This document shows positions 16,963 to 33,636 of a DNA stretch of 59,422 nt, one piece after another. The notes beneath the pieces are model-generated. The model was not told where the DNA came from, did not search any database, and saw only the letters and a program-made list of their open reading frames with translations. This DNA is from a plasmid. Each line of letters opens with the position of its first letter. The stretch's first letter is position 1. The stretch is from sequence record NZ_LC586269.1, one strand, 5' to 3'. Position numbers and translations under genes: made by a program.

Positions 16963-17435
16963 TTAATACCCGCAGCTACTCCTCTTAGGGCCAGGATCTT
17001 GCTGGGAGGCAGCGAGCGAATCTGGTCCTTGAGGAAGGCGACCGCAAAACGAAAATTTCGGCTAACAGTTGTCCCTTGGGTCTGGTCGATACCCAAGGGA
17101 ATGTCTGTGCCGCGTGAGTGGTGCTTCACTATGTCCGAAGCGAGTTGTTGCGCATCGACCGACTCGCCTGCCAGGCACCATTCGATTGCGTCGTCGAACA
17201 CATCGAACAGCGTCGGCTTGCCAGCCGCGACCGCTATCTGGTGAGCGTTGTAGGCGGGTAGACCATCGGCCGGGTTGTCCGTTGGACTACCCGGGCACAA
17301 GGCGTCTTCCCAGCGGATACGATAGAGCGTGCGCCCGTCGTGCTGGAATGGAACGTAGTCGGATAGCGTTGCGATTCTGGCAATTGGCATGGGGGTTATT
17401 TCACTTTTCCGCAAGTTCATCCAGGGCTTGAGCAA
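16959..17435 (-). CDS. Hypothetical protein (~150 aa; start uncertain)
   Basis: ORF track; overlaps parB end. Confidence 0.45.
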   Translation of the reverse strand: MLKPWMNLRKSEITPMPIARIATLSDYVPFQHDGRTLYRIRWEDALCPGSPTDNPADGLPAYNAHQIAVAAGKPTLFDVFDDAIEWCLAGESVDAQQLASDIVKHHSRGTDIPLGIDQTQGTTVSRNFRFAVAFLKDQIRSLPPSKILALRGVAAGIK

Positions 17436-18423
17436 GCGCCTCGATCAGCGCGCTCAGATCACCCTGACCCGGTTCGATGTTCAGCAGTACGGCCAGGGCT
17501 TGGGCTCTCTTCGGGGTCAACATGAGAGAGGCGCTGCCGTTGGTTTCAGAATCTGAAACCACTGGGCCCGAAGAGGTGGCAGCCGTATTGGCGCTGTCAC
17601 TCGTTGAAGCGCTACCCGTGGTTGCCGCTCCATCCTCGCTGGAGGGCTGCTGGGTGGTGCCGGTTTCAGAATCTGAAACTGACCCCTGCCCTGCCCCCGG
17701 CGCCGGCGGCTCCGATTTCTTTTTTTCACGCGGCAGCAGCGCCTTGATGGCCGTCTGGATGCTTTCCCCTTTCTCCAGGCGCTTGCTCAGTTTCTTCAGG
17801 GTATCCGGCCCCATCTTGTCGAGCTTTTCCAGGTCGTAGATGATGTTGACGTCCCGGAATTCATCTAGCTTCGCAAACTCCTGTGCCTCGGGGCTCAGCT
17901 TGAAAACCTTCATATAGCGGCTCAGGCGCGACTTGTCCTTGATGCCGTGTACCGCAAGGATTTCCTCAGTGGTGAATCCGAATTCCTCCTTGTCCCGCTT
18001 GATCGAGCATGCGGTTTGCCAAACGGTCAGCCCCTGGCCGAGGACGTTGCCCGTCACATGGTCCATTCGCCGTTCGCGAACGCCACCTTTACTGATGATG
18101 CACGGCAGCAGCTGCACATCATCCGGAGCGTCTTCGGTCGCCCTCCAGCGGCATTCTCCCTCGATGATCTTGTGCTTCCCTGTTTCGTCTGCTGGTTCCA
18201 CCCAAAGAGCTTTTCGGATTCCGTAGTGGCGGCCCTCCTCGAGGGGGATCAGCGCACTCCTGCGGATGCCGGCGATGTGGGCGAGAGTTCTTTCGGCCTC
18301 CCAGTCATCACGGTCTTGCATCGGGTCCGGGTAGAGGTCGGAGCGGTGGATCAGCACGATCCGTTCACGTGGTTCGTTGTCCGACGATTTGCTGTTCAAC
18401 AGTTCGGCGATGGCATCACTCAT
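17401..18423 (-). CDS. parB: ParB-family partition protein; two copies of the TTTCAGAATCTGAAA palindrome lie inside its coding sequence
   Basis: 340 aa; ParB/Srx N-domain; overlaps parA by 4 nt. Confidence 0.8.
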   Translation of the reverse strand: MSDAIAELLNSKSSDNEPRERIVLIHRSDLYPDPMQDRDDWEAERTLAHIAGIRRSALIPLEEGRHYGIRKALWVEPADETGKHKIIEGECRWRATEDAPDDVQLLPCIISKGGVRERRMDHVTGNVLGQGLTVWQTACSIKRDKEEFGFTTEEILAVHGIKDKSRLSRYMKVFKLSPEAQEFAKLDEFRDVNIIYDLEKLDKMGPDTLKKLSKRLEKGESIQTAIKALLPREKKKSEPPAPGAGQGSVSDSETGTTQQPSSEDGAATTGSASTSDSANTAATSSGPVVSDSETNGSASLMLTPKRAQALAVLLNIEPGQGDLSALIEALAQALDELAEK

Positions 18424-19229
18424 TGCTTGGACTCCAACAGTTTCTTGCAGAAGGCTTCGACTTCGGCCAGGGCGTCTCGAGCCGAGTCATTGTCCGGCTC
18501 AATCCACTTGCCCTGGCTGAAAGCCTTCTTGATCGGATTGCGGTACGCGATTACCCCGAGCAGCGCTCGTTCCTGGTACTTCTCGACCAGCTCGTTGTAG
18601 ATAACCCGTTCTGTCGTTGCTTCGGGCACCTTCTTCCCGAGATAGCTCACCAGCTTCGGTACTCGGTTGATGAGGAATCCTTCCCAGGACAGGTCCGGGT
18701 TCATGCGGTTGCGAATGACCTTCAGAATCTTCGCCAGCTCATGAAGGGAGGTGATCGCGTTGTTGTCGAGGTCGATCGGAGAGTAGACCCGGTGCGAAGC
18801 GATCAGCGCGGCCAGCACGATGTTTCCGTTGCCGGCTGGTGTGTCGATCAACACGTAGTCATAGGACTCGAAGTCGGGAACGTTCTGTTTGAGGTTCTCC
18901 TCCAGCTGGTTCAGAACCATGAGGCTGGCAGAGCGGTTTACCGCTGACATATCCGAGTGCCCCTGGATCAGGTGGATTCGATCCGAGATAGGGCTCACCA
19001 CGATCTTGCGCTGTTCGTCGGGGTCAACGAACAGATCCGTAACATTGCTGTACTGCGAGTACCGAACATCTGCCCCCTGGAAGTTGTTGGTCAGGCTGGC
19101 AATGTTGTCCAGGTCGACCAGAAGAACCTTCTTCTGGAGCTGGCCTGCGATGTAGCAGGCCAGCCCGGTCAGACTGGTGGTCTTGCCGACGCCGCCTTTG
19201 GGCGTCATTACGGAGTAGATAGTTGGCAT
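18420..19229 (-). CDS. parA: ParA/Soj partition ATPase (deviant Walker A KGGVGKTT)
   Basis: 269 aa MPTIYSVMTPKGGVGKTTSLTGLA. Confidence 0.92.
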   Translation of the reverse strand: MPTIYSVMTPKGGVGKTTSLTGLACYIAGQLQKKVLLVDLDNIASLTNNFQGADVRYSQYSNVTDLFVDPDEQRKIVVSPISDRIHLIQGHSDMSAVNRSASLMVLNQLEENLKQNVPDFESYDYVLIDTPAGNGNIVLAALIASHRVYSPIDLDNNAITSLHELAKILKVIRNRMNPDLSWEGFLINRVPKLVSYLGKKVPEATTERVIYNELVEKYQERALLGVIAYRNPIKKAFSQGKWIEPDNDSARDALAEVEAFCKKLLESKQ

Positions 19230-19231
19230 AG

Positions 19232-21340
19232 TCAGATTCCGTCTACGTTGTCGAGAGAGGACAGGTCCACGTCTTGGCCCTGGCCGCTAGGTGATTTCTT
19301 CTCTTGCTTCATCATCTTGTTCTTCTTCTCGCCAGAAGAAGCGAACAAATTGTTTGCAGCCGCGTCGATCATGGCTTGTTGCTCCGGGGTGAGCCCGGCC
19401 GGACCGTCATCTGCTTGCTGGAGTTGTTCTGCAGCGACTGGGATATCGTCGACGCCTGCGAATGGGTCTTCCTCCTGGTCAAACGGAATCGTGTCATCCG
19501 GTTGCTGGTCAAGCTCTGCGAATGGGTCATCGCCGATCATGTCCTCAGGGCTCGGCTCTATCGGTGCTGGAACGGCTGGAACAGTAGAGGAGGGGACGGC
19601 AGCCGGGGAACCCTGGGGGTCCTTCTGGCTCTGCTGTAGAGCAACGTAATGGCTGAGTGGGTACGCATGCTTGTAGGGCACCCAGCAGCTGTACATGACC
19701 GTGCTCAGTACGTTAGGGCGAATAAGCACGGCAACCCGAGGGGGGAGGGCAAGGATGACGTTAGTGGAAATGAAGTTTTCCTCTTGCTGGCCAATACTGC
19801 GCTCGCCTGTCCACTCTTCAGCACCGCCTTCATTTCGCTCAACGCGTTCCATCTTAGTCACGCTTTTCTGCGTAACGCCGGTATTATCCGACAACCACTC
19901 AGCCGTTTTATATTCCGCCGCGCGATGACCGATTGTAATTTGCGTATTTGTCTCGATACCGTTCTTAATTGACTCGGCATTTAATGTTTTGTCGGTCAAG
20001 TTAAGCGGGTCTTCGATTGACTGATAGGCTAATGTCATCAAAAGTTTCTTCGACAGAACAGTGGCCAACGAGTTGGCTAAAGTGTCTGTCATCATAAATC
20101 GTGCTTCGTCAATAGTTAGTTTAACGAAGTTTGGAAGTTGGACGCGTCGAACAGTTTGAATAATTTCTTCAAGCATGCAGTTCGCCGCCTTGCGAACAAC
20201 AGTATCTTGCAGGTCGGATTTTATATAAACGACACTGCCGGCGAGAAGTTCCTTTTCAATATTTAACCCCTCGCCTTCGGGTTCTAGGGCGTCGATAAAG
20301 CGCATTTCCATAAGTGGCGATTCGATGTTCCCCGCATACGTGAATACGAGGTTCTTTTCCGACTCACTGAGCGAGTTTGGGGGATACTGGATGAGTTCTG
20401 CCAAATGAGAAAGACTGCCGTCCCAATGGGGCATGAGCATATCCAAGACGCGGCGGGCATTCTTCTTATAGTGATCCGCATCGGTGCCGGTGTCGTTCAG
20501 TCCCAGTACCTTGGTGATGCGCTCGCGGCGCTCGCGAAGGGTGCCGTTCTTGAAGGGGTGGTAGCCCGTTTCGCGCCCCCCTGTGAGGTCACACACCACT
20601 ATCGGAGCCCTGCCGTTTCGGACGCAAGACTCGCTCATGATATGAACGATATTGTCATCGGGTTTCTGGTCAATGAACCATGCCCCCCAGCCCCGCCAAA
20701 TTGCTTGGTCTAGCTCGACGCCGAGGAACACGCCTTTACCGGTTTGAGAAGGGCCGAGCGCCTTGACGTGAGTTTTCACATACACCGAAAGCGGCGTGTA
20801 GAGCGGAGCGTTGTTCTCGTCTAGCGCGAAGAAAAACTCGTCGTCCTTGTAATGGTCGCTGGGCAAAAAATCCTTTGCCTTCAGACTGGCGGTTACCGTG
20901 CGAATGTCACTCAGCGCGTCCCCTGACTGCATCACTCCCCAGTTTCGCCAGGCGGCGGAAATCCTGGGGCGCACCACCCTGAGGATCAGCATCTTGACGA
21001 AGAAGGGTAGGGCGAAGAAAGGAACAGCTATCCACCACAGATCTCGCAGGCTGTTGAGCAGTATGTCAAACCAGATAAGCCAATATTCCTGGCCACCGTC
21101 ATAGCCGAACTGATAGACGGCTACGACAAACAAAGTAAGGGCAAAAACGGGCAGGGCGGTCATAAACACGATGATTGCGGCGCGCCTTACCCAAGTCGCA
21201 ACAATCGTCAGGCCGCTTGCATCAGTGTCGTGGTGGATAGCTCCACCTACTGACAGTGCCAGCATAAGGCCTAAAAAAAGGGAGACGAGCATCGGCGCCC
21301 AAGGGTCCGTCTGCTCCATCACGATTCTCAAAAATTCCAT
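19232..21340 (-). CDS. Type IV coupling protein-like ATPase (VirD4/TraD family): N-terminal TM helices, P-loop-like GPSQTGKG, Walker B LTIDEA, acidic C-terminal tail
   Basis: Track ORF 19232..21388; ATG with RBS at 21340 preferred; the P-loop is non-canonical. Confidence 0.6.
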   Translation of the reverse strand: MEFLRIVMEQTDPWAPMLVSLFLGLMLALSVGGAIHHDTDASGLTIVATWVRRAAIIVFMTALPVFALTLFVVAVYQFGYDGGQEYWLIWFDILLNSLRDLWWIAVPFFALPFFVKMLILRVVRPRISAAWRNWGVMQSGDALSDIRTVTASLKAKDFLPSDHYKDDEFFFALDENNAPLYTPLSVYVKTHVKALGPSQTGKGVFLGVELDQAIWRGWGAWFIDQKPDDNIVHIMSESCVRNGRAPIVVCDLTGGRETGYHPFKNGTLRERRERITKVLGLNDTGTDADHYKKNARRVLDMLMPHWDGSLSHLAELIQYPPNSLSESEKNLVFTYAGNIESPLMEMRFIDALEPEGEGLNIEKELLAGSVVYIKSDLQDTVVRKAANCMLEEIIQTVRRVQLPNFVKLTIDEARFMMTDTLANSLATVLSKKLLMTLAYQSIEDPLNLTDKTLNAESIKNGIETNTQITIGHRAAEYKTAEWLSDNTGVTQKSVTKMERVERNEGGAEEWTGERSIGQQEENFISTNVILALPPRVAVLIRPNVLSTVMYSCWVPYKHAYPLSHYVALQQSQKDPQGSPAAVPSSTVPAVPAPIEPSPEDMIGDDPFAELDQQPDDTIPFDQEEDPFAGVDDIPVAAEQLQQADDGPAGLTPEQQAMIDAAANNLFASSGEKKNKMMKQEKKSPSGQGQDVDLSSLDNVDGI

Positions 21341-21426
21341 AGAACACCCTCTACCTTCGTGCCCAAAAAACCTTCCGCGAAGCTTCAATCATCCACCGCC
21401 AGGAGGGAAGGGCGGCGCGTCCAAAA

Positions 21427-21705
21427 TTTCAGAATCTGAAATTTCCTACGGCCTTCCCTCCTAGCTCCAGAGTTTCAGAATCTGAAATTTGCGTATCAGC
21501 GCGTTCGCGCTTTCCCGCGGTTTCAGATTCTGAAATGGCCATGTGGCTGTCGCCTGGGGCGGTCGGCCAAATGGCTCCGGCTCTGCCGCTCTGCTGGGAC
21601 GCGATGAGAGTTTCAGAATCTGAAACTCCCGTGCGCCCCTGTCGTACCACCCCTTTGTCTTGTTCGAGTCGCCTGGGGAGGTGGCAAAAGTTTCAGAATC
21701 TGAAA
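21427..21705. promoter_or_regulatory. Five copies of 15-bp palindrome TTTCAGAATCTGAAA (21427, 21473, 21521, 21611, 21691): centromere-like parS candidate; two more copies at 17544 and 17664 inside parB
   Basis: Perfect palindromes with 40-90 bp spacing upstream of the T4CP-parAB operon. Confidence 0.6.
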
Positions 21706-21756
21706 CTTTTAGGCCACTCGCTAACCCTATGCGTCCTCTATGTTTAAGTCAAGGGG

Positions 21757-23140
21757 TTGTGCTACGATAAAATCATAGAGAAAAGCATAGAGAAAGAGCA
21801 TGAAAAAGCCCAAAGCAAAGAGCCAGGAGCGCCCCGACCAGGTGGTCGGGGTGACGCCAGCGTCTGCTGGCATCATGGCTCCGAAACGCATGCGTTTCTT
21901 TGCCGAAGAGCGCGCCGCTGCATGCAGCGTCGTGCCTGCCCTTTACGGGACAGGCATACACCCCCGGAGGAGCGCTCCGGGGGTGTGCAGGACTCCACGA
22001 CGCATGCGTCGTTCCGCCCTCTTTTTCTGCCTGCGCCCTGGACGGGCTTGTCCGAAAAATTCACCCGCGCGCCCGTCCACTCTCTTCGAGAGCGGACCCC
22101 CCAGCTTCCTGGGATTGCGCAACGCTTCGCCGCGGTCCTTCGTCCCTTGCTCAGCTGCTCCACCCCGGAACCCGGGGGGTCCGCTCTCGCCGACTTCAGC
22201 CCTGGCGGGCTTCAGTAGTCGAGCGCAGACGGGCGCGCGCTGCACGTCGCCTGATGCTTCGCACTCCAGGTCCCGGCCTGGACGGCCGTCCCTGGAGCAG
22301 ACCGGCATTCGGCCCTGGGGGGCCTCGGTGCCTTGCGAGCCGCGTGGGCGCGTCTCGCATCTGTCAGGCTTCTGTTTGTTTCGGCCCACCTCGCTGACGC
22401 GAACTGGGCCGCGCGCTGCCGGAACAGCTTTTGGCTGTTCCGGAGAGCGGGGCGCCTGCCGACCTCCGCTCGACGGCTCCGCCATCGCTGCGCATCGCAT
22501 TGCCCTCGCCGACCCATTCGGGCGGCTGGGCTCGCTCGCTTGCTCGGCGAAGCGTCGTCACCTGGGCCGAGTTGCTGGGCGCCCCCCGAAACAGCTTCTG
22601 GCTGTTTCGGAAAAGCCGGAACAGCTTTTGGCTGTTCCGAAGAGCAGGGGAGCTTGCCGACCTCCGCTCGACGACTCCGCCATCGCCGCGCATCGCATTG
22701 CCCTCGCCGACCCGTTCGGGCGGCTGGGCTCGCTCGCTTGCTCGGCGAAGCGTCGTCACCTGGGCCGAGTTGCCGGGCTCCCCCCGAAACAGCTTCTGGC
22801 TGTTTCGGAAAAGCTGGGCGCCGACTTTGCCTCGCTCGACGGCTTCGCCCTGCGCTTCACTTCGCATCGTCTGCGCCGGCCTTTACAGGCGGCTGACTCG
22901 CTCGCTCGCTTGGTCAAGCGTCGTTCCCTACACTGCGTGCCGGGGCGCCCAATCGAAACAGCTTGTGGCTGTTTCGAAAGAGCCGGAGAGCTTCGCCGCC
23001 CTGTGCAGCTATCGGCGACAAAAGCTCGTCGTAATCAAACACCTGTACCCGACTGCCCTGCGGAAACAGCTCGCGGCTGTTTCCGAGGGCCGGAACAGCT
23101 TCTGGCTGTTCGGAGTCGGGAGATGAGTAAGGAGCGAGAG
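21757..23140. repeat. 1.4-kb GC-rich noncoding region with ~7 palindromic iterons (CGRAACAGCTNNTGGCTGTTYCG) and two ~170-bp direct repeats (22440-22610, 22640-22800); candidate oriT or oriV
   Basis: Repeats seen directly; ORFs called here are frame artefacts. Confidence 0.6.
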
Positions 23141-23141
23141 A

Positions 23142-23900
23142 TTGACTGAGCGTCTAATGGACGGTTGGACCGGGTCCCGAGGTAAGGAGCGGAGCCGGGA
23201 AAAAATCAAAGAGGTCGTGCGGTGGCTCGCCCTCTTTGACTTCTCCAACCAATCGCTGTTGGCCAAGGCCTACGGCGCTGAGGTCAGAGGTCAGACTGTG
23301 TTCTTCAGACGCCTTGAGGAGTCTCGCCTAGTCGTTGTTACGAAGGCGCCGGGTCTCGACTGGAAAATCTACTCGCTGAGCCAGAGCGGGATGGAGATGG
23401 CAAGGGTGCTGCTGCCGCACCTGGATCTCAAGCGACGGCGAACGCCGTCGTGGATCCAGCTGGTCCATGCATTCTCCATCCAGGGGGCGATCATGGCGCG
23501 ACGGGATGAGATCAGCGGCTTCATGCCAGAAAAAGAGCTTTCCAAGATGAAGGCCAACCATTTGCCGGATGCTGTTCTCGAATACAAGAATGGGAAGAAG
23601 GTCGCTTTGGAAGTGGAGTTGAACCATAAAAGCGTTGGTCGGATTTACAATATCTTCCTGTCGCACCTCAAGAACATCCATAAAGGTCACTACGATCAGG
23701 TTCTCTATCTGTTTTCAAGCGAGCAGCTCAAGAACAACTACGAAGAGAAGTACAAGGTAAATATCTGGCCGATGTACATTATTAGCGAGCGAGGAAAGCT
23801 TGTTCTCAGCCCTGAACACCGTGGTGGATTCGATGCTGCCAAGATGGTTCATCCCACTGATAAGTTCAGGTTCATCTGCGAGGAGCTGTATTCATTATGA
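23142..23900 (+). CDS. Winged-helix plus PD-(D/E)xK-like nuclease-fold protein (252 aa); candidate DNA-processing protein
   Basis: Motif ...PDAVLEY...KKVALEVELNHK; iterons end 30 bp upstream; stop overlaps start of the VirB11-like gene (ATGA). Confidence 0.45.
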   Translation: MTERLMDGWTGSRGKERSREKIKEVVRWLALFDFSNQSLLAKAYGAEVRGQTVFFRRLEESRLVVVTKAPGLDWKIYSLSQSGMEMARVLLPHLDLKRRRTPSWIQLVHAFSIQGAIMARRDEISGFMPEKELSKMKANHLPDAVLEYKNGKKVALEVELNHKSVGRIYNIFLSHLKNIHKGHYDQVLYLFSSEQLKNNYEEKYKVNIWPMYIISERGKLVLSPEHRGGFDAAKMVHPTDKFRFICEELYSL

Positions 23901-24934
23901 GCCTAACTGAAACTGTATTTGGTCCAGTTCCCAGCGATCCGAAGTCTTTACGTTCGTGGGAGTCGGTAATCCTCTATGCGAAACCGTTCCTTAAGTATTA
24001 CTCCGATCCTGAAGTTACAGAGATCATGATCAATGGCTGGGACTCGATCTTCATCGAGAAGAACAGCCGAATGATTCGAGTCGAGGAGAAATTCGCTAGC
24101 GAGTCTGACCTCCAGCGGTTCATCACCCAATGCGCTAACGCGCTCAACCTGGTGGATCCTCACAAGGACCCCGAGACGAACGCGCGGTTGCCCGATGCAT
24201 CCCGCATCTGTGCAACCATGCCGGCCATCACTCCATTTGGCGCGACGGTGACTCTTCGGAAGGCTCCAACTCGTTTGCTCACCCTGGAGGACCTGGTTTC
24301 CTACGGGGCCATGAGTGCGGAGATGGCCGATTTCATTGGCGAGCAGGTTTCGAAGAGGGTCAACTTCCTGTGCAGCGGAAACACGGGCTCAGGAAAAACG
24401 ACCTTGCTTCGGGCTGTCTCCAAGTTTCTCGACCCCTCTACTCGGATCATTACCGCGGAAGACACGATGGAACTGCACCTCCGCGCGACCCTTCCCAACT
24501 GCATTTCGATGGAGGCCTCGAAACAGTCTGATGGGGTCCCGAAGGAGCTTTCCGATCTGATCCGCATCTCGCTTCGGCAGCGTCCTGACAGCCTCTGGGT
24601 AGGGGAGCTACGTGATGCCAAAGCGGTCAATGCATGGGTCACTGCGATGAACACCGGCCTGGATGGTTGCGCCTCAACCATCCACTCCAACGGCCCGGGC
24701 GACTCCATCCACCGCTGCCAGTACCTGATGGCTTCAGCGGGCGTGATGGATTACGACCTGGTGGGCAAGATTCTCATGGGCGACCTGCACATGCTGATCC
24801 ATGCCAGCCGTAACCACCGGCTGTATGGGAGAAAGATCACGCACGTCTGCCTTATCCAGAACGGCAAGATCGTCCCGGTCTTCGAGTACAACATAGAGAA
24901 GGGAGAACACATCTACCTCAAGCCGAGCTGCTGA
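23897..24934 (+). CDS. virB11: VirB11/TrbB-family secretion ATPase (Walker A GNTGSGKTT)
   Basis: 345 aa; P-loop, Asp box and His box arrangement. Confidence 0.85.
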   Translation: MSLTETVFGPVPSDPKSLRSWESVILYAKPFLKYYSDPEVTEIMINGWDSIFIEKNSRMIRVEEKFASESDLQRFITQCANALNLVDPHKDPETNARLPDASRICATMPAITPFGATVTLRKAPTRLLTLEDLVSYGAMSAEMADFIGEQVSKRVNFLCSGNTGSGKTTLLRAVSKFLDPSTRIITAEDTMELHLRATLPNCISMEASKQSDGVPKELSDLIRISLRQRPDSLWVGELRDAKAVNAWVTAMNTGLDGCASTIHSNGPGDSIHRCQYLMASAGVMDYDLVGKILMGDLHMLIHASRNHRLYGRKITHVCLIQNGKIVPVFEYNIEKGEHIYLKPSC

Positions 24935-25248: not shown

Positions 25249-25304
25249 ATCAATTCCGCACGTTGTGCGGCCAAGGGGAATGATTCCCCTTGGAACCCCC
25301 ATAT

Positions 25305-26050: not shown

Positions 26051-26195
26051 TATTAGAAGGGGAGGGGGGCTATCAGAATAGATAGTTTTTAACTTCGAAA
26101 GGAGTTGTCGCCTTGTCGTAGCGGCACTGTGCCGCTATAAAAATGCCTTTACTCAGGCGCCCATCTCCTACTGGAGACCCTGCCGGCGTCAGATC

Positions 26196-26646: not shown

Positions 26647-26970
26647 ATGCAACTGTTGACGACAAAAGAGTTGGCTCTGCTGGTGGGGGCACAGCCTGGT
26701 TACAGGGTAGTCCTGACCGAAACGGAAGAAAGCGGTAATCGCTGGTGGGGGATGCGCATCGACCTTCCTCAGGGTAAGAGCTACCAGATCATCACTACCA
26801 GGTTGCCTAAAAAGCCAAAGCTCTGGCGGCACGTCGATAACGCAATTCTATTCGTTGAGGAGTATTGCCCTGAGGCCATCGGGAGCAACTCCGTATCTCT
26901 AGAGTTTCGTTCGCGCCTGACCGGTGCGACTGGAGATGGAAATGCAAGAAATGCAGCACCCGCAGCTTAA
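26647..26970 (+). CDS. Hypothetical protein (107 aa), first gene of the mpf operon
   Basis: ORF track. Confidence 0.4.
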   Translation: MQLLTTKELALLVGAQPGYRVVLTETEESGNRWWGMRIDLPQGKSYQIITTRLPKKPKLWRHVDNAILFVEEYCPEAIGSNSVSLEFRSRLTGATGDGNARNAAPAA

Positions 26971-27352
26971 CCCTGATCTCGAGAACAAAGCCGCCTTCGT
27001 CCAGCGGCGGGAGTCGTTTGGCATCCCTACCAAAATATGGGTAGGGGTCGTGGGTATGGGGCTCATCGCGCTTTTCGGCTCTCTCTACATTTTCGGGATT
27101 TGGCTCGGCCTTTTGGTCGGGACAGTCATGTGCCTCGTGATCACCATCCCGGTATTCATGATCCACAAGGAAGACCCGGACGCCTGGGTTTTTTGGCTGC
27201 AGAGCCTGACAGCCCCTGATTTCTTGGATCCTCTCAAGTTCGATCATGCGGTGTACACGAGCTGGTTGGGGGGGCGTAAGCGCCGAATTCTGCTGTTGTC
27301 CTGGAACGATAACGATCCGGTTATCGGTTCTGCTTTCACTGAAAAGGAGTGA
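26924..27352 (+). CDS. Small inner-membrane protein with two TM helices (VirB3-like candidate; start uncertain)
   Basis: Hydrophobic segments IWVGVVGMGLIALFGSLYIFGIWLGLLVGTVMCLVITIPVF. Confidence 0.45.
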   Translation: MRLEMEMQEMQHPQLNPDLENKAAFVQRRESFGIPTKIWVGVVGMGLIALFGSLYIFGIWLGLLVGTVMCLVITIPVFMIHKEDPDAWVFWLQSLTAPDFLDPLKFDHAVYTSWLGGRKRRILLLSWNDNDPVIGSAFTEKE

Positions 27353-27356
27353 TCTG

Positions 27357-27692
27357 ATGAAAGTGTCTCGCTTGAAAAACTGGCTCTTCTGTATGGCGGC
27401 CATCCTCGCCATCAGTCCTGGGGCGCAGGCTCTGAACAACGATGTGGATCTTGGCTCGCCGAACGACGGCCCGCTGCAGAAAATCGGCGCACTGATGCAG
27501 CAGATAGTCGACTTCCTGGGTGGCCCTGGAGTTCTTCTGGTGGCTGTCCTCGGGTTCGTCCTGGCCTACTTCATGTGGGTGGTCATTCCCAAGTCCGCCG
27601 GGCCGGCAATTGGTCTTGTTGGGCGTGCGCTGACTGGCGCGGTTGTGATGTTCAACATCGCCCTTCTGTTCTCCTGGATTCAGGGGATCTAA
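27357..27692 (+). CDS. virB2: VirB2/TrbC-like pilin precursor (signal peptide ending AQA plus two hydrophobic helices)
   Basis: 111 aa from MKVSRLKNW...; immediately upstream of VirB4. Confidence 0.6.
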   Translation: MKVSRLKNWLFCMAAILAISPGAQALNNDVDLGSPNDGPLQKIGALMQQIVDFLGGPGVLLVAVLGFVLAYFMWVVIPKSAGPAIGLVGRALTGAVVMFNIALLFSWIQGI

Positions 27693-27694
27693 CC

Positions 27695-30247
27695 ATGGGG
27701 CGCTATCAGGGGGAGCCAAAGCGGGTCGAGCCGTTGAACAGCAAGCTGTACTCGGCGGGTGTGTGGAAGGAATTCTGCCTGACCTACGCGGGTTCGCTGT
27801 TGAGCGGTATCGAGATGGGTGGGACCGACCCGACAGCCCTGGGAGAACATGATCGGCGATTGTTCTCCAGTGTTCAGCGCGCCCTTTACCAGAGCCTCCA
27901 CCCATCCCTCAGCCTCTGCCAATACTACTTTCACTTCGAGGGTAAAGAGGTTGCATTGCGCGAGCGGGACGACCCGCGGAGTGACCTGCTTTCGAAGCGG
28001 CGCGCCCGCTTCCTGAATTCACAGCGGCTGAATGACTCCCGTCTGTTCTGGTTGTTGGAGTGCCCGGCGGAGGAGCATGTAAACAACCTGCTCAGCGTCG
28101 GGATGCTGAAGCATTTGTTTCAGGCGCCCTTCGAGGCGGAAAGCCGCCTGCTATTGATGCAGCGGTTCCGGAACCATGATGCATGGATCGCGGAAGAGCG
28201 GCAGTTGCAGCGGCAGGCCGACCTTCTCGAGGCGAGCCTGAAAGATCTGTCCAGCCGGGCGGAGCTGGTGTCGCCTCGATCCTCCACCATGAATCTCCAG
28301 TCTCTATGGGCGCTTCACCGAGCCCTGGTGAACATGAACCCATCACTGCTCGACAGTGCGGTGCATGAGGAGGTGCCGGTCGAGAACTGGGACGCACTTC
28401 TTTCCAACGGGGGCATCGAGCCGGTCGAGATCGACGGCATGACGTGCCTGAAGTTCCACGGTCCCCGTCCGGTCTACGCGCGGGTCGCGAGCATCATCGC
28501 CTATGGCGGTCGTTACGTTCCGGAGGGAATCTGGATCCAGACTCAGCGCTCCCCGCTGATGCAGAAAGGCAACTACCTGGTAGTCAACCGCTGGGTGCCG
28601 TACAGCAAGGCGGGGTTGTCAATGCTGCTGCGGAACAAGGCCAACGAACTGGCCCGGCAGAACATGAAGCTGTCTGCGATTCTCACCGGTGAGAACCCGA
28701 ATAGCGGTATGGAGGAAAAGCTCAAAAACAGCGATCACCTCCGCAAGAAGGTCAAAGAACTTGATGATGCGGCGAACACCCCGGATCGCTGGGGTTCGTA
28801 TAACTCGCATGTTGTGGTGTGGAACGAGAATCCGCTTGAGCTCAAGAGCGCGTGTGCAGAGATGCACACCGCTTTGACCGAGAGCAGCCTCACGGCCGTA
28901 TGGGAGTCGGCCGGGCTGATAGAGCTATTCCCGACCCTACTTCCCGGCTACGCGAAGAAGTCGATGCGTGCGGTGGAGTTCACGAGCAGCCAGGCCGGTG
29001 CGACGTCTATCGCATTCAAGTCGCAGAAGGGGGTGACCTCCTGGGGCCCGGCTAAGGAGGAGCCCACCTACATTCTCCAGACCCGAGACAACTGCGCGTT
29101 CGGATACTCGGAGTTTCTGGCGGACAAGGGCCTTGTTATCGCAACTGGCCCCACTCGATCCGGCAAGACGTTCGCGAAGAATTCTATCGCGAGCCACTTC
29201 ATGAAGTTCGGAGGGCTGTACCAGGATATTGGTGTTGATGCTGGTGCCGAGGCGATGGCCGCTTTCTTCGGATCTGATGCGGGTGTATTCCGCATCACGG
29301 ACCCTGCGACGAGTCACGGTTTCAACGCGTTCTTCTCGGCTGATCCGGCTTTGAAGGAGAAAGACGGGTTATTCGTAGGGCATCTACTGCACCTGTTGCG
29401 GATCATGTTCGAACTCAACGAGTCGGCGGATCTGCGTTCGATCGATAAGGATGAACAGGCTGATCTCGATAGGGCGATCCGTGACATCCTGCGGGTTGAT
29501 GAGGCCAGCATGCGGACCCTCTCGGGCCTGTATAGCCACTTCCCGAAAAGCCTTAAGCAGAAGCTGGAGCGCTGGGTGCGCCCGGGAATATACGGCAACC
29601 TGTTCGACAACGAGATTGATGGGTTGGGCACCTTTGGTAGGCGGATGGGTATCTACAACTTGAGCGGCCTGAAGGACGACCATAGGCTCGCAGCGCTCGC
29701 CCAGACCGAAATCTTTTTCAGGGTGACCAGGCTATTCGAAGATCCGAAGCTGGTAGATCGCATCAAACAGCTGCAGATCGATGAGTGTCAGTACTTCCTG
29801 GACGTTCCAGGAGCAGTGCAGTTCCTGCTTGCAAAGGTCCGAACCTGGAACAAGTGGAACGCCGGAATCACACTGTGGACACAGAGCCCTCAGCACTACG
29901 CGGCCATACCCGACTGGCAGATGCTACGCGGTGCAGCTACCACGTTCCTGTTCGGGGCAGAGCCAAAAATGTCGACCGAGATGAGATCTCATTACAAGAC
30001 GGTCTTCGGAGCGAGCGACGGAATCGTTGACGGCATTGAGTCCCTACGGCCGCAGCGCGAGATGCTCATCTGGCAACCCGAGGCGGATATAGCCCAGGTG
30101 GTCCAGCTGAATGTCGAGCCAGAGCAATATGTCGTCTCGACCAGCTCTCCCAGTGAACAGCCAGTGATCCGAGAGATGTTCGCCAAATATCCTGGAGACG
30201 TAGACAGGGCTATCGCTGAAGCGGTGAAGGCCTTGAGACTCGCCTAG
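27695..30247 (+). CDS. virB4: VirB4/TrbE-family conjugative ATPase (Walker A GPTRSGKT)
   Basis: 851 aa from MGRYQGEP; track ORF 27575..30247 over-extended. Confidence 0.9.
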   Translation: MGRYQGEPKRVEPLNSKLYSAGVWKEFCLTYAGSLLSGIEMGGTDPTALGEHDRRLFSSVQRALYQSLHPSLSLCQYYFHFEGKEVALRERDDPRSDLLSKRRARFLNSQRLNDSRLFWLLECPAEEHVNNLLSVGMLKHLFQAPFEAESRLLLMQRFRNHDAWIAEERQLQRQADLLEASLKDLSSRAELVSPRSSTMNLQSLWALHRALVNMNPSLLDSAVHEEVPVENWDALLSNGGIEPVEIDGMTCLKFHGPRPVYARVASIIAYGGRYVPEGIWIQTQRSPLMQKGNYLVVNRWVPYSKAGLSMLLRNKANELARQNMKLSAILTGENPNSGMEEKLKNSDHLRKKVKELDDAANTPDRWGSYNSHVVVWNENPLELKSACAEMHTALTESSLTAVWESAGLIELFPTLLPGYAKKSMRAVEFTSSQAGATSIAFKSQKGVTSWGPAKEEPTYILQTRDNCAFGYSEFLADKGLVIATGPTRSGKTFAKNSIASHFMKFGGLYQDIGVDAGAEAMAAFFGSDAGVFRITDPATSHGFNAFFSADPALKEKDGLFVGHLLHLLRIMFELNESADLRSIDKDEQADLDRAIRDILRVDEASMRTLSGLYSHFPKSLKQKLERWVRPGIYGNLFDNEIDGLGTFGRRMGIYNLSGLKDDHRLAALAQTEIFFRVTRLFEDPKLVDRIKQLQIDECQYFLDVPGAVQFLLAKVRTWNKWNAGITLWTQSPQHYAAIPDWQMLRGAATTFLFGAEPKMSTEMRSHYKTVFGASDGIVDGIESLRPQREMLIWQPEADIAQVVQLNVEPEQYVVSTSSPSEQPVIREMFAKYPGDVDRAIAEAVKALRLA

Positions 30248-30265
30248 ACATAAGAGGGAATTTTT

Positions 30266-31117
30266 ATGAAGCGCAAGTTTAAGCCTCTGGCGATAGCTGT
30301 ATTCCTAGCAATGGCAACCATGTCTAGTAGTAGTGTGGTTAATGCATGGGGTTTTCCTGTTGCAGACATTGCTAACCTCACTCAGATGGTTGAGGGCTAT
30401 ATCCAGGACCTGAAGAACTACGATGAATACATTCAGACAACGATCCTGAACCAAGAGCAGCTTGCGGAGGCTCTCCGGCTTTATAAGCAGACTCTCGTTG
30501 CATATGACGAGGTATTGCGTCAAATGGAGTCGCTGAAGCGCAAGCTGAGTCCCAGGGACTGGAATGCGCTGTTTGCCAGCTATAAGGACATTCTCGATCT
30601 ATATCCTACCCAAACTCAGCGCAGCGATGCTGAGTGGGAAAGAATCAACGCGAAAGTAGATCAGGTCTATGCTCGAGGTCAGAAAATGGTCGAGCTTCAG
30701 TCGATCGTTGACGCTATTCCATTCAAAGGCAATGGGCGAGAAACAGTTGCGAGCGACTTGAATCGTGCGATTACTCGTTCAGATCTTGCAGTGTCTCAAT
30801 CGAACACTGTAGAGAAGTTCAATCAAAAGCTGAAGGACAACATGGAGGACCTCACGTATCTGGATGAGAACCGCCTTTCTCTTGGTGATGAGGATAATTT
30901 ACGAACGCTGCAATTTCTTGCGGAACAGAACCAAAAGGCACTAGAGCTTCAGGTTGAAAGTATGGCCCAGAGTAACAGTCGCATGTTGTTCTCTAACCAA
31001 CTAGCATCGCATGTCTTTTCTAAGGACAAGGAAAATCAGGAAGCATCCTTGAAAGAGCTAGAAGAGAAGAGAAAACAGAAAATCAAGGTTGATAATTCTC
31101 CTTTGGCAAACTGGTAA
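30266..31117 (+). CDS. virB5: VirB5/TrbJ-like secreted coiled-coil protein
   Basis: 283 aa; signal peptide; position after VirB4. Confidence 0.55.
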   Translation: MKRKFKPLAIAVFLAMATMSSSSVVNAWGFPVADIANLTQMVEGYIQDLKNYDEYIQTTILNQEQLAEALRLYKQTLVAYDEVLRQMESLKRKLSPRDWNALFASYKDILDLYPTQTQRSDAEWERINAKVDQVYARGQKMVELQSIVDAIPFKGNGRETVASDLNRAITRSDLAVSQSNTVEKFNQKLKDNMEDLTYLDENRLSLGDEDNLRTLQFLAEQNQKALELQVESMAQSNSRMLFSNQLASHVFSKDKENQEASLKELEEKRKQKIKVDNSPLANW

Positions 31118-31127
31118 GAGTTTAGAT

Positions 31128-31658
31128 ATGAAAAAGTTTCCACTGATTTTCGTAATGTTGCTGTCCACTAGCGCTTTTGCTGTTGAGAGATATATAGATA
31201 AGGCGCAAGAAGGCTATGATATGAAGAGGGCAGAGTATTTTAAGACTGCTCGATCTAGCTGCTCTCATCTGAAGACTGTTGGGGACAGGCGTACTTGTGA
31301 GAGAAAAATAACCGACAAAGCGGATGAGAAATACCCTCCTAGAGGGAGTTCGGCTTACTCGAAGAAAAACTATTCCGGAATGAGCAAGGAACAAGCTGTG
31401 GCGAAGCTTGTCGAGCTAAAGAGTATCTACGAGAAAGCCCATGGTGGATCTAAAGCGTATCCAGGAGAACTGACAAAGAATGCTGTGGAGGCAGAAGCCA
31501 GTTGGATTCAGAAAAATATCTTTGGGAGACGCACTTTAAGTAGTTCTCTTTCTTTTTACTTGCCATGTGAAAAGCAGTTGCCCGGTAGTCCTATAAGAAA
31601 ATACTGTGAAATTGGTGGGGACAAAGTTTTAGAAGGATCCATTTACTCTACCGAGTAA
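31128..31658 (+). CDS. Secreted protein between VirB5 and VirB6 homologues (positional candidate for entry exclusion)
   Basis: Signal peptide MKKFPLIFVMLLSTSAFA; low GC. Confidence 0.35.
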   Translation: MKKFPLIFVMLLSTSAFAVERYIDKAQEGYDMKRAEYFKTARSSCSHLKTVGDRRTCERKITDKADEKYPPRGSSAYSKKNYSGMSKEQAVAKLVELKSIYEKAHGGSKAYPGELTKNAVEAEASWIQKNIFGRRTLSSSLSFYLPCEKQLPGSPIRKYCEIGGDKVLEGSIYSTE

Positions 31659-31659
31659 T

Positions 31660-32835
31660 ATGGTTGAGGGCATTCTAATGGCGACAATGTGGCTTGTGGT
31701 AGTTATGTGCGCACTGATGTTCGGTGCGTCGGGCTACCTGTTCTCGCGCTGGAGATACGCTCGCTTGCTAGCAGCGAGCGGGGTGTCCCTGGCCAGTCTG
31801 CCGGTCATGAAGGCAAGCCGTGCGGGAACTAGCGGGCGGTGGTGGCAGCGTAGGTGGGTGAGGATCGGTGGCCAATCGCTTGCCTGGGCCGCACTGTTCT
31901 TCTCACCTCTGCTACTGATGATTCCTGCTACGGCGGATGCGGCGCTGTCGGAGACGTTCCGAAGTGTTTTCGCCGGTGAAGTCAGCCGGTTCGTGGTGGG
32001 CATCATGGGGGATTACACGAACCCGGTGAATCAATGGTCCAGGATGCTGTTGGGGTTCTGTTTCTTCGTCCTGATTGTCTCCGAGGCAACGATATTCGTC
32101 TTGGATGGGCTTAATACACTGCGCTTGGTGGCCGCTTTTGTATCGTTGTCTATAACGGTGGCTTTTTGGCTTGGATACGACTATGGCACGAGCGCAATGT
32201 GGGGCGTCGGAGTCGCTATATCTCAGGGGATGCAGTCGTTCCTAGTAGGCAATACTGACAACTTTTTCTTCATACAGTGGGTAAAGATCGCTTTTGATAA
32301 CGTCAAGCTCGAGGATATGGGGCTGTGGGACGGCATAAAGTATTGGCAGTATTCCACTGCCTGGGAGTTCATTGCTTTTCTGCTTGAGGCTGTCTACTGG
32401 CTGGCTTCCATGTGGTCTGAGCTTGGCTATGGTTTGGCAAAGATCGTTGGGGTTGTATTTATCCCGTTTTATATGCTTGAGAGTACGCGTCCGCTCTTCG
32501 ATGGTTGGCTTAGGTTCTTCGTGGGGTTCATCATTCTGAATGTCATCCTGAAGGCGACGATGGTCCTTTCTGCGCTGTTGGTGAGATTCACCCTTTACGA
32601 CCTGGGCATGAACTTCAACGGAGCATGGGGCGAGCCAACGGAGGTTGTCCCGTTTGCGAAGGAACAACTGTATTTGTTGGCGGATTCTGCTGCTGCTCTT
32701 TTTGTCGCGGTACTTTTCGTACTTTCCAGCTTTGTATTCGCATCGATACTAGCTTCAGGGGCTGGGAGCATGTCTGGCGCATTAGGAAAAGCTGCAAACA
32801 TGGTATCCAGAGGGGTTACCAAGAAGTTCTTCTAA
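31660..32835 (+). CDS. virB6: VirB6/TrbL-like polytopic inner-membrane protein
   Basis: 391 aa with multiple TM segments. Confidence 0.7.
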   Translation: MVEGILMATMWLVVVMCALMFGASGYLFSRWRYARLLAASGVSLASLPVMKASRAGTSGRWWQRRWVRIGGQSLAWAALFFSPLLLMIPATADAALSETFRSVFAGEVSRFVVGIMGDYTNPVNQWSRMLLGFCFFVLIVSEATIFVLDGLNTLRLVAAFVSLSITVAFWLGYDYGTSAMWGVGVAISQGMQSFLVGNTDNFFFIQWVKIAFDNVKLEDMGLWDGIKYWQYSTAWEFIAFLLEAVYWLASMWSELGYGLAKIVGVVFIPFYMLESTRPLFDGWLRFFVGFIILNVILKATMVLSALLVRFTLYDLGMNFNGAWGEPTEVVPFAKEQLYLLADSAAALFVAVLFVLSSFVFASILASGAGSMSGALGKAANMVSRGVTKKFF

Positions 32836-32847
32836 GAGGGTAAATTT

Positions 32848-33636
32848 ATGGTTGGCATAGTTGACAACACGGGGATCGCTCGCGCTGAAAAAAGCGATCA
32901 GCCTCGGCGAGACACTAAACTTCAGGTGACTATCAATTGGCTTCTGGTGGCGATTCTTGTTCTTGTGGTTGCCATCGTTGTGCTTTCGGTTTCTCTCTCG
33001 TCGATGGCCGAAAAGGCCTCTCGCAATCTTGAAATCGCTTACGTGAAGCTGTACCCGAATGGGAACAGGGAAATCTCGTACTTCAAACGTCAGCCCTATC
33101 AAGAGTATCTGCCCGCGACGGTTGATGCGTTGCTGAAAGACTTCATCAGAGTGCGTTTCGGTGTGTTCCCACCGACCATTACGAGGGACTACGGCCAGGT
33201 GGGGATGCTCGTTTCTAATGCGCTGTATCAGCGCTTTGTCGATGAAGAGAAGAACGGCGGCTTCGATGCAGTCAAGAAGGCAGCTGCTATCGCTGCGAAA
33301 GAAGCGACAGAGGACCGCATCTCAATAGCTGATATCTGGATCGACCATTACGACACTGTGCCGGCTGTTTTTTCCAACAAATCGTCGGAAGTTGTGCGGA
33401 CCAATATCTACTACACCAAAGTCTCGACGAGCCCGCAGGGGTTCGAGAAGAGCAGGAGTGCCAAGATCGCGCGACTACAGTGGCGCCTGGTGGATAAGAA
33501 AGAACTCGAGGAATTGGCCTCGAAGAACACCAAGATCCTCGACGTCAATCCGATTGGACTTGAAATCGTGGACTACGAAGAAATCGACGATCCGGCAGGG
33601 ATCAAGGCGAAGCGCAGCGAGGTTCAACCCCAATGA
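32848..33636 (+). CDS. virB8: VirB8-like bitopic protein
   Basis: 262 aa; single TM after N-terminal cytoplasmic region. Confidence 0.65.
   Translation: MVGIVDNTGIARAEKSDQPRRDTKLQVTINWLLVAILVLVVAIVVLSVSLSSMAEKASRNLEIAYVKLYPNGNREISYFKRQPYQEYLPATVDALLKDFIRVRFGVFPPTITRDYGQVGMLVSNALYQRFVDEEKNGGFDAVKKAAAIAAKEATEDRISIADIWIDHYDTVPAVFSNKSSEVVRTNIYYTKVSTSPQGFEKSRSAKIARLQWRLVDKKELEELASKNTKILDVNPIGLEIVDYEEIDDPAGIKAKRSEVQPQ

What the first reader, a model, noticed from the sequence alone, without database searches (positions are those of the whole stretch)
23142..24934. Full MPF-T type IV secretion set plus coupling protein but no recognisable HUH relaxase; a winged-helix/PD-(D/E)xK-like protein next to the iteron region is the best candidate
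The window encodes VirB1, 2, 4, 5, 6, 7, 8, 9, 10 homologues, a VirB11-like ATPase and a T4CP-like ATPase, with ssb, topB and parAB. No ORF shows relaxase motifs such as HxDxxxxHxH. If the window is a complete circle, DNA processing must use something non-canonical. The 252-aa protein at 23142 has a winged-helix-like N-terminus and a PD-(D/E)xK-like motif (D...ALEVELNHK). It sits 30 bp downstream of the last palindromic iteron of the 1.4-kb repeat region, and its stop overlaps the start of the VirB11-like ATPase gene. Restriction-endonuclease-fold relaxases are rare and poorly described, so this is a strong candidate for a novel nickase or relaxase.
Basis: partly seen in the sequence, partly recalled or inferred. 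Interest (0 to 1): 0.8.

Follow-up and report, generated by a model that had tools for sequence, protein, structure and literature searches.

The report
MOBC-type relaxase and its transfer origin

Summary
ORF 23142-23900 (252 aa) has a winged-helix N-terminus and a PD-(D/E)xK core (D143, E157, E159, K163). Its stop overlaps the start of a VirB11-like ATPase gene. It lies 29 bp after the last of seven hairpin repeats. None of 50 ORFs scanned on this circular IncP-11 plasmid carries a Pfam domain of another relaxase family.

The protein matches NCBIfam 'MobC family replication-relaxation protein' (E=5e-19). 68 of 69 of its profile relatives match that model too. The 98%-identical orthologue in plasmid RP1-1 is annotated 'rlx', and RP1-1 is reported self-transmissible. 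MOBscan already called a MOBC relaxase on this backbone, in pP33-2.

The 'iterons' are not replication iterons. RepP-11A is at 42946-43827, and by analogy with RP1-1 oriV should lie next to it. The upstream region holds a ~140-nt covarying inverted repeat. It starts at an invariant 15-mer and aligns with the CloDF13 region that contains the published nic sequence. That alignment predicts nicking at 22097/22098 on the minus strand.

By-products: MOB-suite, Pfam and oriTfinder2 miss this relaxase, so at least 40 P. aeruginosa plasmids, carbapenemase (KPC) carriers among them, are labelled non-mobilizable. A conserved TTTTG-loop hairpin array remains unexplained.

The parts
23142..23900 (+). MOBC-family relaxase gene (252 aa): N-terminal winged helix (about residues 12-95) and a PD-(D/E)xK nuclease core with H109, Q114, D143, E157, E159, K163
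23897..24934 (+). VirB11/TrbB-like secretion ATPase gene; its start overlaps the relaxase stop (ATGA), which suggests translational coupling
   Evidence: The same gene pair is found in all relatives examined.
19232..21388 (-). Type IV coupling protein gene, transcribed divergently from the relaxase operon
   Evidence: Pfam TraG-D_C. NCBIfam SXT_TraD, E=6e-11. Annotated 'cpl' in RP1-1.
22057..22071 (+). Invariant 15-mer AAATTCACCCGCGCG at the left foot of the large inverted repeat
   Evidence: One exact copy on the + strand upstream of the relaxase gene in 12 of 12 evaluable fetched loci, two of them near-identical relatives, and one in the window. One mismatch in pKPC_UVA01. AAATTCACCCG in CloDF13.
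22067..22206 (.). Large imperfect inverted repeat (~140 nt); candidate oriT core
   Evidence: z=-3.6 as ssDNA. 94.9% of cells paired. 20 of 50 pairs carry compensatory changes, reached by 0 of 500 shuffles, and slid controls give at most 7.
22093..22102 (-). Predicted nic core. The + strand reads CGGAC|CCCCC and aligns with CloDF13 CCGAC|CACCC, the complement of the published nic 5'-GGGTG/GTCGGG-3'. Predicted cut on the minus strand between the complements of 22098 and 22097.
   Evidence: Nic sequence quoted in PMC5935869. It is unique in CloDF13 at 9752-9762. Alignment A7 has invariant C.GACC..CC. This is an inference by homology.
22418..23123 (+). Possible binding sites for the relaxase's winged-helix domain.
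   Evidence: The family-wide motif AAC-NN-C-TTTTG-G-N'N'-GTT has a covarying stem and is always on the + strand between the large repeat and the gene.
21424..21707 (.). Five GTTTCAGAATCTGAAAC palindromes next to the coupling-protein gene start; probable operators or centromere sites of the KorB-domain protein
   Evidence: Covarying versions sit at the same place in relatives. The function is inferred.
17401..19229 (-). KorB-domain protein gene (17401-18423) and ParA gene (18420-19229), in one operon with the coupling protein gene
   Evidence: Synteny.
26924..37160 (+). Divergent MPF-T-like mating-pair genes: VirB2-like, VirB4, VirB6-like, VirB8, VirB9, VirB10 and an SLT lytic transglycosylase
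   Evidence: RP1-1 carries tivB annotations for these genes.
42946..43827 (+). RepP-11A replication initiator. It shows that vegetative replication is encoded elsewhere and places the plasmid in IncP-11.
   Evidence: 96% identity to the RP1-1 RepP-11A that supports a mini-replicon.

Best explanation
The 252-aa protein is the conjugative relaxase of an IncP-11 Pseudomonas aeruginosa plasmid, and it belongs to the MOBC family.

Proposed mechanism (inferred unless marked otherwise):
- Its N-terminal winged helix binds oriT in the 1.75-kb intergenic region between the coupling-protein operon and the relaxase-VirB11-T4SS operon. The hairpin repeats at 22418-23123 are the likely binding sites.
- Its restriction-endonuclease-like core (D143, E157, E159, K163; BamHI-like D-E-E metal site) nicks one strand inside the left arm of the ~140-nt inverted repeat. 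The predicted cut is at 22097/22098 on the minus strand.
- The nicked strand is handed to the adjacent coupling protein and exported by the MPF-T-like secretion system. The coupling-protein/partition side enters the recipient first, and the relaxase/T4SS operon enters last.

Shown here: homology of the protein, its fold and catalytic residues, conserved synteny, conservation and covariation of the DNA element, and its alignment with the CloDF13 nic region.

Shown in the literature: the near-identical backbone RP1-1 transfers itself.
For: Protein:
- NF041423 MobC_subf, E=5e-19.
- 494 profile relatives. In a sample of 69 sequences (the window protein plus 68 relatives), 68 hit NF041423 and 19 hit Pfam Replic_Relax.
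- hhalign probability 97.1% (E=6e-11) to a PGAP-named MobC.
- D143, E157, E159 and K163 align with D152, E170, E172 and K176 of the pTEF1 protein taken as the pAD1 TraX homologue.
- The N-terminus matches MarR winged-helix structures.

Context:
- The order coupling protein (-), 1-1.7-kb gap, relaxase-VirB11 (+) is conserved in P. canadensis, P. syringae, Marinobacter and pKPC_UVA01. MOB-suite types two of these as MOBC.
- No other relaxase domain was found in the 50 ORFs scanned on the circular plasmid.

DNA:
- The 15-mer is invariant in 12 of 12 evaluable loci, although the proteins of the ten distant ones are only about 48% identical.
- The inverted repeat covaries.
- CloDF13 has the same motif plus a large repeat. 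Its published nic sequence sits at the aligned position.

Literature:
- RP1-1 is self-transmissible and its orthologue is annotated 'rlx'.
- The MOBC family is defined by a winged helix plus a restriction-endonuclease fold.
Against: - No experiment exists on this protein or this DNA.
- The NF041423 score (68.5 bits) is far below the curated cut-off (200), and Pfam Replic_Relax does not hit the protein itself.
- Direct profile comparison with the single pTEF1 TraX-like sequence is weak (E=0.02, probability 2.4%).
- The tyrosine reported as essential in TraX (Y181) aligns near Y169, a position that is Y in only 44 of 69 relatives and F in 18.
- Both arms of the inverted repeat carry the nic-like sequence, so the strand and arm assignment rests only on position relative to the 15-mer.
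- pP33-2 failed to transfer in mating, but it has lost part of its T4SS.
Confidence: 0.85

Rival explanations
1. The protein is mainly a DNA-binding regulator (MarR-like repressor) of the relaxase-VirB11-T4SS operon that acts at the hairpin repeats, and DNA processing is done by something else or by a co-resident element.
For: The N-terminal domain resembles MarR repressors. The last hairpin lies 29 bp before the start codon, a position that suits an operator. Several tools call the plasmid family non-mobilizable.
Against: The nuclease residues H109, D143, E157, E159 and K163 are invariant or nearly so across 69 divergent relatives, which is not expected for a pure repressor. No alternative relaxase is present. 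RP1-1 transfers from a PAO1-derived donor on its own. Autoregulation and nicking are not mutually exclusive.
Confidence: 0.07
2. The protein is a replication initiator ('replication-relaxation' family) of a second replicon, and the repeat region is its iteron origin, as the reader's word 'iteron' implies.
For: The family name (Pfam Replic_Relax). The repeats are numerous and directly oriented. IncP-10 and IncP-11 plasmids are often multi-replicon.
Against: A RepP-11A gene plus its neighbouring oriV is sufficient for replication in RP1-1, and the window has that Rep at 42946-43827. The repeat region is 63-70% G+C, without an AT-rich stretch or a promoter-like site. The conserved core aligns with a mapped transfer nic region, not with an oriV. 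The gene is coupled to virB11 and faces the coupling-protein gene in every relative.
Confidence: 0.04
3. The protein is a stand-alone restriction-type or defence nuclease, or a toxin, carried in the transfer region and unrelated to DNA transfer.
Confidence: 0.03

Closest known systems
MobC of plasmid CloDF13 (MOBC family, Gram-negative branch; NCBIfam NF041423)
   Same: Same size class (~240-250 aa). Same winged helix plus PD-(D/E)xK architecture and the same catalytic D/E/E/K. It is encoded next to a coupling protein. The upstream DNA shows the same AAATTCACCCG motif followed by a large inverted repeat, and the mapped CloDF13 nic sequence (5'-GGGTG/GTCGGG-3') aligns with the window's 22093-22102.
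   Different: CloDF13 is a small mobilizable ColE1-type plasmid without its own T4SS. Here the relaxase is the first gene of a complete MPF-T-like operon on a plasmid of the self-transmissible RP1-1 (IncP-11) type. The protein scores only 68.5 bits against the family model (cut-off 200) and is about 21% identical to a PGAP-named MobC. The array of TTTTG-loop hairpins was not found in CloDF13.
TraX of Enterococcus faecalis plasmid pAD1 (MOBC prototype; Francia et al. 2013, as cited in PMC12857230 and PMC6736028)
   Same: Winged-helix N-terminus. BamHI-like D-E-E active site: window D143/E157/E159 align with D152/E170/E172 of the pTEF1 protein taken as the TraX homologue. The gene is adjacent to a TraM-recognition-domain coupling protein. 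The bind site, made of direct repeats, is separate from the nic site.
   Different: Only about 17% identity, and the direct profile comparison is weak. The host is Gram-positive with an MPF-FATA system. The TraX Y181 position is not conserved in the window's clade. The repeats here are hairpins spread over 700 bp, not five short direct repeats.
Orthologue 'rlx' of IncP-11 archetype RP1-1 (LC700336, BDG78233.1) and the MOBC call on pP33-2
   Same: 98% identical protein with the same neighbours and the same seven hairpins. RP1-1 is reported self-transmissible. pP33-2, on the same backbone, was typed MOBC by MOBscan.
   Different: Nothing of substance. The window differs in its accessory transposon and integron load (a VIM-type metallo-beta-lactamase, two aadA cassettes, a mer operon, IS21).
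pKPC_UVA01-type plasmids of Enterobacterales
   Same: Same module: ParB, coupling protein (-), ~1.1-kb gap, relaxase and VirB11 (+), VirB4. MOB-suite types the relaxase as MOBC. The gap holds AAATTCCCCCGCGCG at the foot of a large inverted repeat.
   Different: 36% protein identity. The inverted repeat is longer (~290 bp) and the small repeats are different.

Membership tests
MOBC relaxases (MobC_CloDF13 / TraX_pAD1; Pfam PF13814, NCBIfam NF041423) | Significant sequence homology to family models or to named members | tested here: met
   NF041423, E=5e-19 over residues 13-203. hhalign 97.1%, E=6e-11, to the Vibrio 'MobC family replication-relaxation protein'. 68 of 69 profile relatives hit NF041423 and 19 of 69 hit PF13814.
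MOBC relaxases (MobC_CloDF13 / TraX_pAD1; Pfam PF13814, NCBIfam NF041423) | Score above the curated family thresholds (automatic assignment) | tested here: not met
   68.5 bits against a cut-off of 200 for NF041423. No PF13814 hit even at E<=1. MOB-suite labels all 40 close plasmids non-mobilizable. This reflects the reach of the models. It does not outweigh the homology evidence above.
MOBC relaxases (MobC_CloDF13 / TraX_pAD1; Pfam PF13814, NCBIfam NF041423) | N-terminal winged helix-turn-helix DNA-binding domain | tested here: met
   Profile positions 15-105 match MarR/ZitR/AdcR structures, best E=2.5e-5. The model has helices 12-30, 37-44 and 48-60 and strands 64-68 and 75-79, at modest pLDDT of 45-66.
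MOBC relaxases (MobC_CloDF13 / TraX_pAD1; Pfam PF13814, NCBIfam NF041423) | PD-(D/E)xK fold with a D-E-E(-K) metal-binding active site | tested here: met
MOBC relaxases (MobC_CloDF13 / TraX_pAD1; Pfam PF13814, NCBIfam NF041423) | Tyrosine equivalent to TraX Y181 (reported essential for pAD1 transfer) | tested here: inconclusive
   Y181 of the pTEF1 protein aligns one residue from window Y169. That column is Y in 44 of 69 sequences and F in 18. The best-conserved Tyr in this clade (Y200, 67 of 69) is Leu in the pTEF1 TraX-like and Vibrio MobC proteins.
MOBC relaxases (MobC_CloDF13 / TraX_pAD1; Pfam PF13814, NCBIfam NF041423) | Encoded next to a coupling protein and to a cognate oriT with a large inverted repeat that contains nic | tested here: met
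   A divergent coupling-protein gene lies 1.75 kb away. A covarying 140-nt inverted repeat is present. It aligns with the CloDF13 nic region. Whether the DNA works as an oriT was not tested.
MOBC relaxases (MobC_CloDF13 / TraX_pAD1; Pfam PF13814, NCBIfam NF041423) | Site- and strand-specific nicking of oriT, and requirement for transfer | not testable with these tools
   The only support is indirect: RP1-1, whose orthologue is 98% identical, is self-transmissible (bioRxiv 10.1101/2024.09.03.610885, Supplemental Text S1).
HUH relaxases (MOBF/P/Q/V/B) and MOBH, MOBT | An ORF with a Relaxase, TrwC, MobA_MobL, Mob_Pre, TraI_2 or Rep_trans domain (HxDxxxxHxH-type motifs) | tested here: not met
   None was found in the 50 ORFs scanned against Pfam, at E<=0.01 for 40 backbone ORFs and E<=1e-4 for 10 accessory ORFs. 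The repeat-spanning ORF also had no hit. Ten ORFs were also run against NCBIfam. The MOBscan and CONJScan HMMs themselves were not available.
Iteron-type replication origin | Directly repeated Rep-binding sites next to the rep gene, with an AT-rich region; sufficient for replication | tested here: not met
   The Rep gene is 20 kb away, at 42946-43827. The RP1-1 oriV was mapped next to that gene. The repeat region is 63-70% G+C.

The most novel reading that the evidence does not exclude
The clade-wide, strand-specific array of hairpins (AAC-NN-C-TTTTG-G-N'N'-GTT; 1-7 copies, covarying stem, conserved loop) between the nic region and the relaxase gene could be a so far undescribed oriT component. 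It might be read as extruded or single-stranded hairpins, either as the loading platform for a MOBC relaxase or as a signal on the transferred strand. With no tyrosine conserved across the family, this self-transmissible Gram-negative system could show how MOBC relaxases pilot and rejoin DNA without a stable covalent intermediate.
Probability: 0.2. Interest if true: 0.55.

Novelty: new member of a known kind. Interest (0 to 1): 0.3.

Why it matters
For relaxase biology this is a divergent member of a known family, so the claim of a novel nickase falls.

The practical point is classification. Pfam, MOB-suite (as recorded in PLSDB) and oriTfinder2 fail to see this relaxase. All 40 closely related P. 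aeruginosa plasmids, carbapenemase (KPC) carriers among them, are recorded as non-mobilizable. A 2025 survey concluded the same for its 'clade II' KPC plasmids. Yet the archetype RP1-1 is reported to transfer by itself. Lowering the MOBC thresholds or adding this clade to the models would correct mobility predictions for these resistance plasmids.

The predicted oriT and nic (22057-22206) give a concrete target for mobilisation tests. No MOBC relaxase has a solved structure: the family profile found no PDB relative beyond MarR-like domains.

Tried and rejected
- The 449-aa ORF 21800-23149 that spans the repeats and ends at the relaxase start. Its translation is Arg/Pro/Ala/Cys-rich without any family hit. 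PGAP and the RP1-1 authors call different small ORFs there. I treated it as non-coding.
- The pMOS94, pAMBL and pPE52IMP plasmid lineages. They are unrelated backbones with MOBF11 or MOBP11 relaxases.
- Rfam search of 21300-23200. Only chance-level hits.
- Sigma-70 promoter scan of the intergenic region. No sites.
- Recovering MobC itself from the CloDF13 record. The old sequence gives broken reading frames and PLSDB lists no mobC there. I used a PGAP-named Vibrio MobC instead.
- The Francia et al. 2013 paper (PMC3746933) is not held. Its content is taken second-hand from PMC6736028 and PMC12857230.
- Direct hhalign against the single pTEF1 TraX-like sequence was too weak to stand alone.
- The 15-mer was not found in the Vibrio MobC locus. 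In CloDF13 it matches only as AAATTCACCCG plus context. The CloDF13 link therefore rests on motif, inverted repeat, nic position and orientation together, not on the count of pattern matches.
Full report
**What is there.** The window is a complete circular plasmid. An IS21-type istA frame runs off the end and finishes at bases 6-8, overlapping the istB start at base 1. ORF 42946-43827 is 96% identical to RepP-11A of RP1-1, the IncP-11 archetype, whose Rep plus adjacent oriV supports a mini-replicon. About 40 P. aeruginosa plasmids in PLSDB share the 21-26 kb segment at 80-99% identity, and MOB-suite types all of them 'non-mobilizable'. Bases 1-12476 and about 52500-59422 hold resistance and transposition genes: IstB, Sul1, two AadA cassettes, a VIM-type metallo-beta-lactamase, IntI1, resolvases, the mer operon and a Tn3-family transposase.

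**The observation.**
- ORF 23142-23900 (TTG start, 252 aa, AGGAG 7 nt upstream) overlaps the ATG of a 345-aa T2SSE/TrbB/VirB11-type ATPase gene by ATGA.
- Pfam scans covered 40 backbone ORFs and 10 accessory ORFs. They found a type IA topoisomerase, ParA, a KorB-domain protein, a coupling protein, VirB2-, VirB8-, VirB9- and VirB10-like proteins, SLT, SSB and ParB. They found no relaxase domain of any HUH, MOBH or MOBT family. The repeat-spanning ORF had no hit either.
- VirB4 is seen only by NCBIfam, at 94.6 bits. The transfer system is a divergent MPF-T type.

**What the protein is.**
- Pfam gives nothing. NCBIfam gives 'MobC family replication-relaxation protein' (NF041423) at E=5e-19 over residues 13-203, below the curated cut-off.
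- A profile of 16 homologues finds 494 cluster representatives at E<=1e-3. In a spread sample of 69 sequences (the window protein plus 68 relatives), 68 hit NF041423 and 19 hit Pfam Replic_Relax, the MOBC family model.
- The clade profile aligns to a PGAP-named Vibrio MobC with 97.1% hhalign probability.
- Across the 69 sequences, H109 and D143 are invariant. K21, Q114, P142, E157, E159, K163, Y200 and W209 are nearly so.
- D143, E157, E159 and K163 align with D152, E170, E172 and K176 of the replication-relaxation protein of pTEF1, which I take as the homologue of pAD1 TraX. This is the 'DEE', BamHI-like site described for TraX (PMC6736028).
- The N-terminal part of the family profile hits MarR-type winged-helix structures at E=2.5e-5.
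- This architecture, a winged helix plus a restriction-endonuclease fold, is the one that defines MOBC relaxases (PMC12857230; PMC5714925).

**Context.**
- The arrangement is KorB/ParB, ParA and coupling protein on one strand, then a 1.0-1.75-kb gene-free gap, then relaxase and VirB11 on the other strand. It recurs in plasmids of P. canadensis, P. syringae and Marinobacter (47-50% protein identity) and in pKPC_UVA01 of Enterobacterales (36%). MOB-suite types the P. canadensis plasmid and pKPC_UVA01 as MOBC.
- The 98%-identical gene of RP1-1 is annotated 'rlx: relaxase'. RP1-1 transferred from PAO1808 to PAO1 in filter matings.
- The relaxase assignment is therefore well supported, but it is not new.

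**The repeat region.** The gap 21389-23141 holds three kinds of element.

1. *Palindromes.* Five GTTTCAGAATCTGAAAC palindromes lie at 21424-21707 beside the coupling-protein gene. Relatives have covarying palindromes at the same place. They are probably operators or centromere sites of the KorB-domain protein. This is an inference.

2. *The large inverted repeat.*
   - A ~140-nt imperfect inverted repeat lies at 22067-22206. Its left foot overlaps a 15-mer, AAATTCACCCGCGCG.
   - The 15-mer occurs exactly once, on the same strand and upstream of the relaxase gene, in all 12 evaluable fetched loci. Two of those are near-identical relatives. In the other ten the proteins are only about 48% identical.
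   - In nine diverse sequences, 94.9% of cells pair and 20 of 50 pairs show compensatory changes. No shuffle out of 500 reaches this, and slid controls give at most 7.
   - pKPC_UVA01 has AAATTCCCCCGCGCG at the foot of a larger repeat.
   - CloDF13 has AAATTCACCCG followed by a ~135-nt inverted repeat, about 530 nt upstream of its mob genes and on their strand.
   - The CloDF13 nic reported by Nunez and de la Cruz, 5'-GGGTG/GTCGGG-3' (quoted in PMC5935869), occurs once in CloDF13. It is the complement of the left arm of that repeat.
   - In the alignment it falls on the invariant block C.GACC..CC, which is window 22093-22102.
   - By homology the window's nic is on the minus strand, between the complements of 22098 and 22097.
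   - The coupling-protein/partition side would then enter the recipient first, and the relaxase/T4SS operon last.
   - Because the element is an inverted repeat, the other arm carries the same sequence on the plus strand. The choice of arm is an inference.

They prove to be a clade-wide motif, AAC-NN-C-TTTTG-G-N'N'-GTT. It occurs in 1-7 copies, always on the plus strand and always between the large repeat and the gene. The inner stem covaries (AG/CT, GA/TC, GG/CC, AC/GT), and outside the window's own variant copies the loop is conserved. In pAD1, TraX binds five direct repeats 70-120 bp from nic. By analogy these hairpins are the best candidates for the winged-helix binding sites, but nothing here tests that, and the conserved asymmetric loop is unexplained.

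The region is 63-70% G+C without an AT-rich stretch. It is 20 kb from the Rep gene. It is not a replication origin.

**Open points.** The TraX tyrosine reported as essential (Y181) aligns next to window Y169, a column that is often Phe. The best-conserved tyrosine of this clade (Y200) is Leu in the pTEF1 TraX-like and Vibrio MobC proteins. This fits published reports that no stable covalent intermediate was seen for MobC or TraX, but it does not resolve the mechanism.

**Verdict.** It is wrong that this is novel, and wrong that the repeats are iterons. It is a divergent member of the MOBC family with a CloDF13-like oriT. The useful residue is threefold: a predicted oriT and nic for IncP-11-type plasmids, an unexplained hairpin array, and a systematic mislabelling of these resistance plasmids as non-mobilizable.

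Noticed in passing
window 47022-47438 (+): A 138-aa protein matches the anti-CRISPR AcrF3 (Cas3 inhibitor) family, Pfam PF21401, E=4e-55. It lies in the plasmid maintenance region, next to a KfrA-like gene.
   Followed up: no
window 38984-41716 (+): A 910-aa YadA-like trimeric autotransporter adhesin (stalk, head and anchor domains) is encoded just after ssb in the transfer backbone. It is annotated 'trbM' in RP1-1 and could be a mating adhesin.
   Followed up: no
window 22418-23123; L004, L006-L008, L010-L014: Hairpin motif AAC-NN-C-TTTTG-G-N'N'-GTT. The stem covaries and the non-palindromic loop is conserved. It occurs in 1-7 copies, always on the strand of the relaxase gene and always between the large inverted repeat and the gene. 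It was absent from the exact-pattern search in Marinobacter and CloDF13. Its function is unknown.
   Followed up: partly
window 21424-21707; L004 4526-4659; L005 5019-5118; L006 4618-4712; L017 2952-3062: Clusters of 3-5 copies of a 17-19-bp palindrome (GTTTCAGAATCTGAAAC here) lie next to the coupling-protein gene start. The sequence changes from plasmid to plasmid while the palindrome is kept. These are probably KorB/ParB-type operators or centromere sites.
   Followed up: partly
window 59422/1 junction: The record is opened inside an IS21-like element. The istA stop (bases 6-8) overlaps the istB ATG (bases 1-3), which shows that the window is a circular molecule.
   Followed up: yes
window 3236-4027 (-) and 4731-5522 (-): Two aadA-type adenylyltransferase ORFs of equal length (263 aa) lie 1.5 kb apart in the integron region, next to a metallo-beta-lactamase ORF. 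This suggests a duplicated cassette.
   Followed up: no
L013 and L014 (CP093282, Pseudomonas silvicola plasmid p2): One 84.9-kb plasmid carries two copies of the whole oriT-like region plus relaxase gene, with identical repeat arrays including a 30-bp unit repeated 5-8 times.
   Followed up: no
window 27575-30247 (+) and neighbouring T4SS genes: The mating-pair genes are unusually divergent. The VirB4-like ATPase has no Pfam hit at E<=0.01 and only 94.6 bits to TIGR00929 (cut-off 643). The VirB6-, VirB5- and VirB3-like ORFs have no family hit at all.
   Followed up: partly
window 25265-26085 (+): A stretch of 70-74% G+C just after the VirB11-like gene carries overlapping 252-263-aa ORFs with no family match. 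Related plasmids annotate different small ORFs there or none. Its coding status is unclear.
   Followed up: no
L002 (NC_002119, CloDF13 in PLSDB): The reference CloDF13 record is itself typed 'non-mobilizable' by MOB-suite and lacks a mobC annotation. Its mob region translates into broken frames, so the family prototype is poorly represented in this resource.
   Followed up: partly
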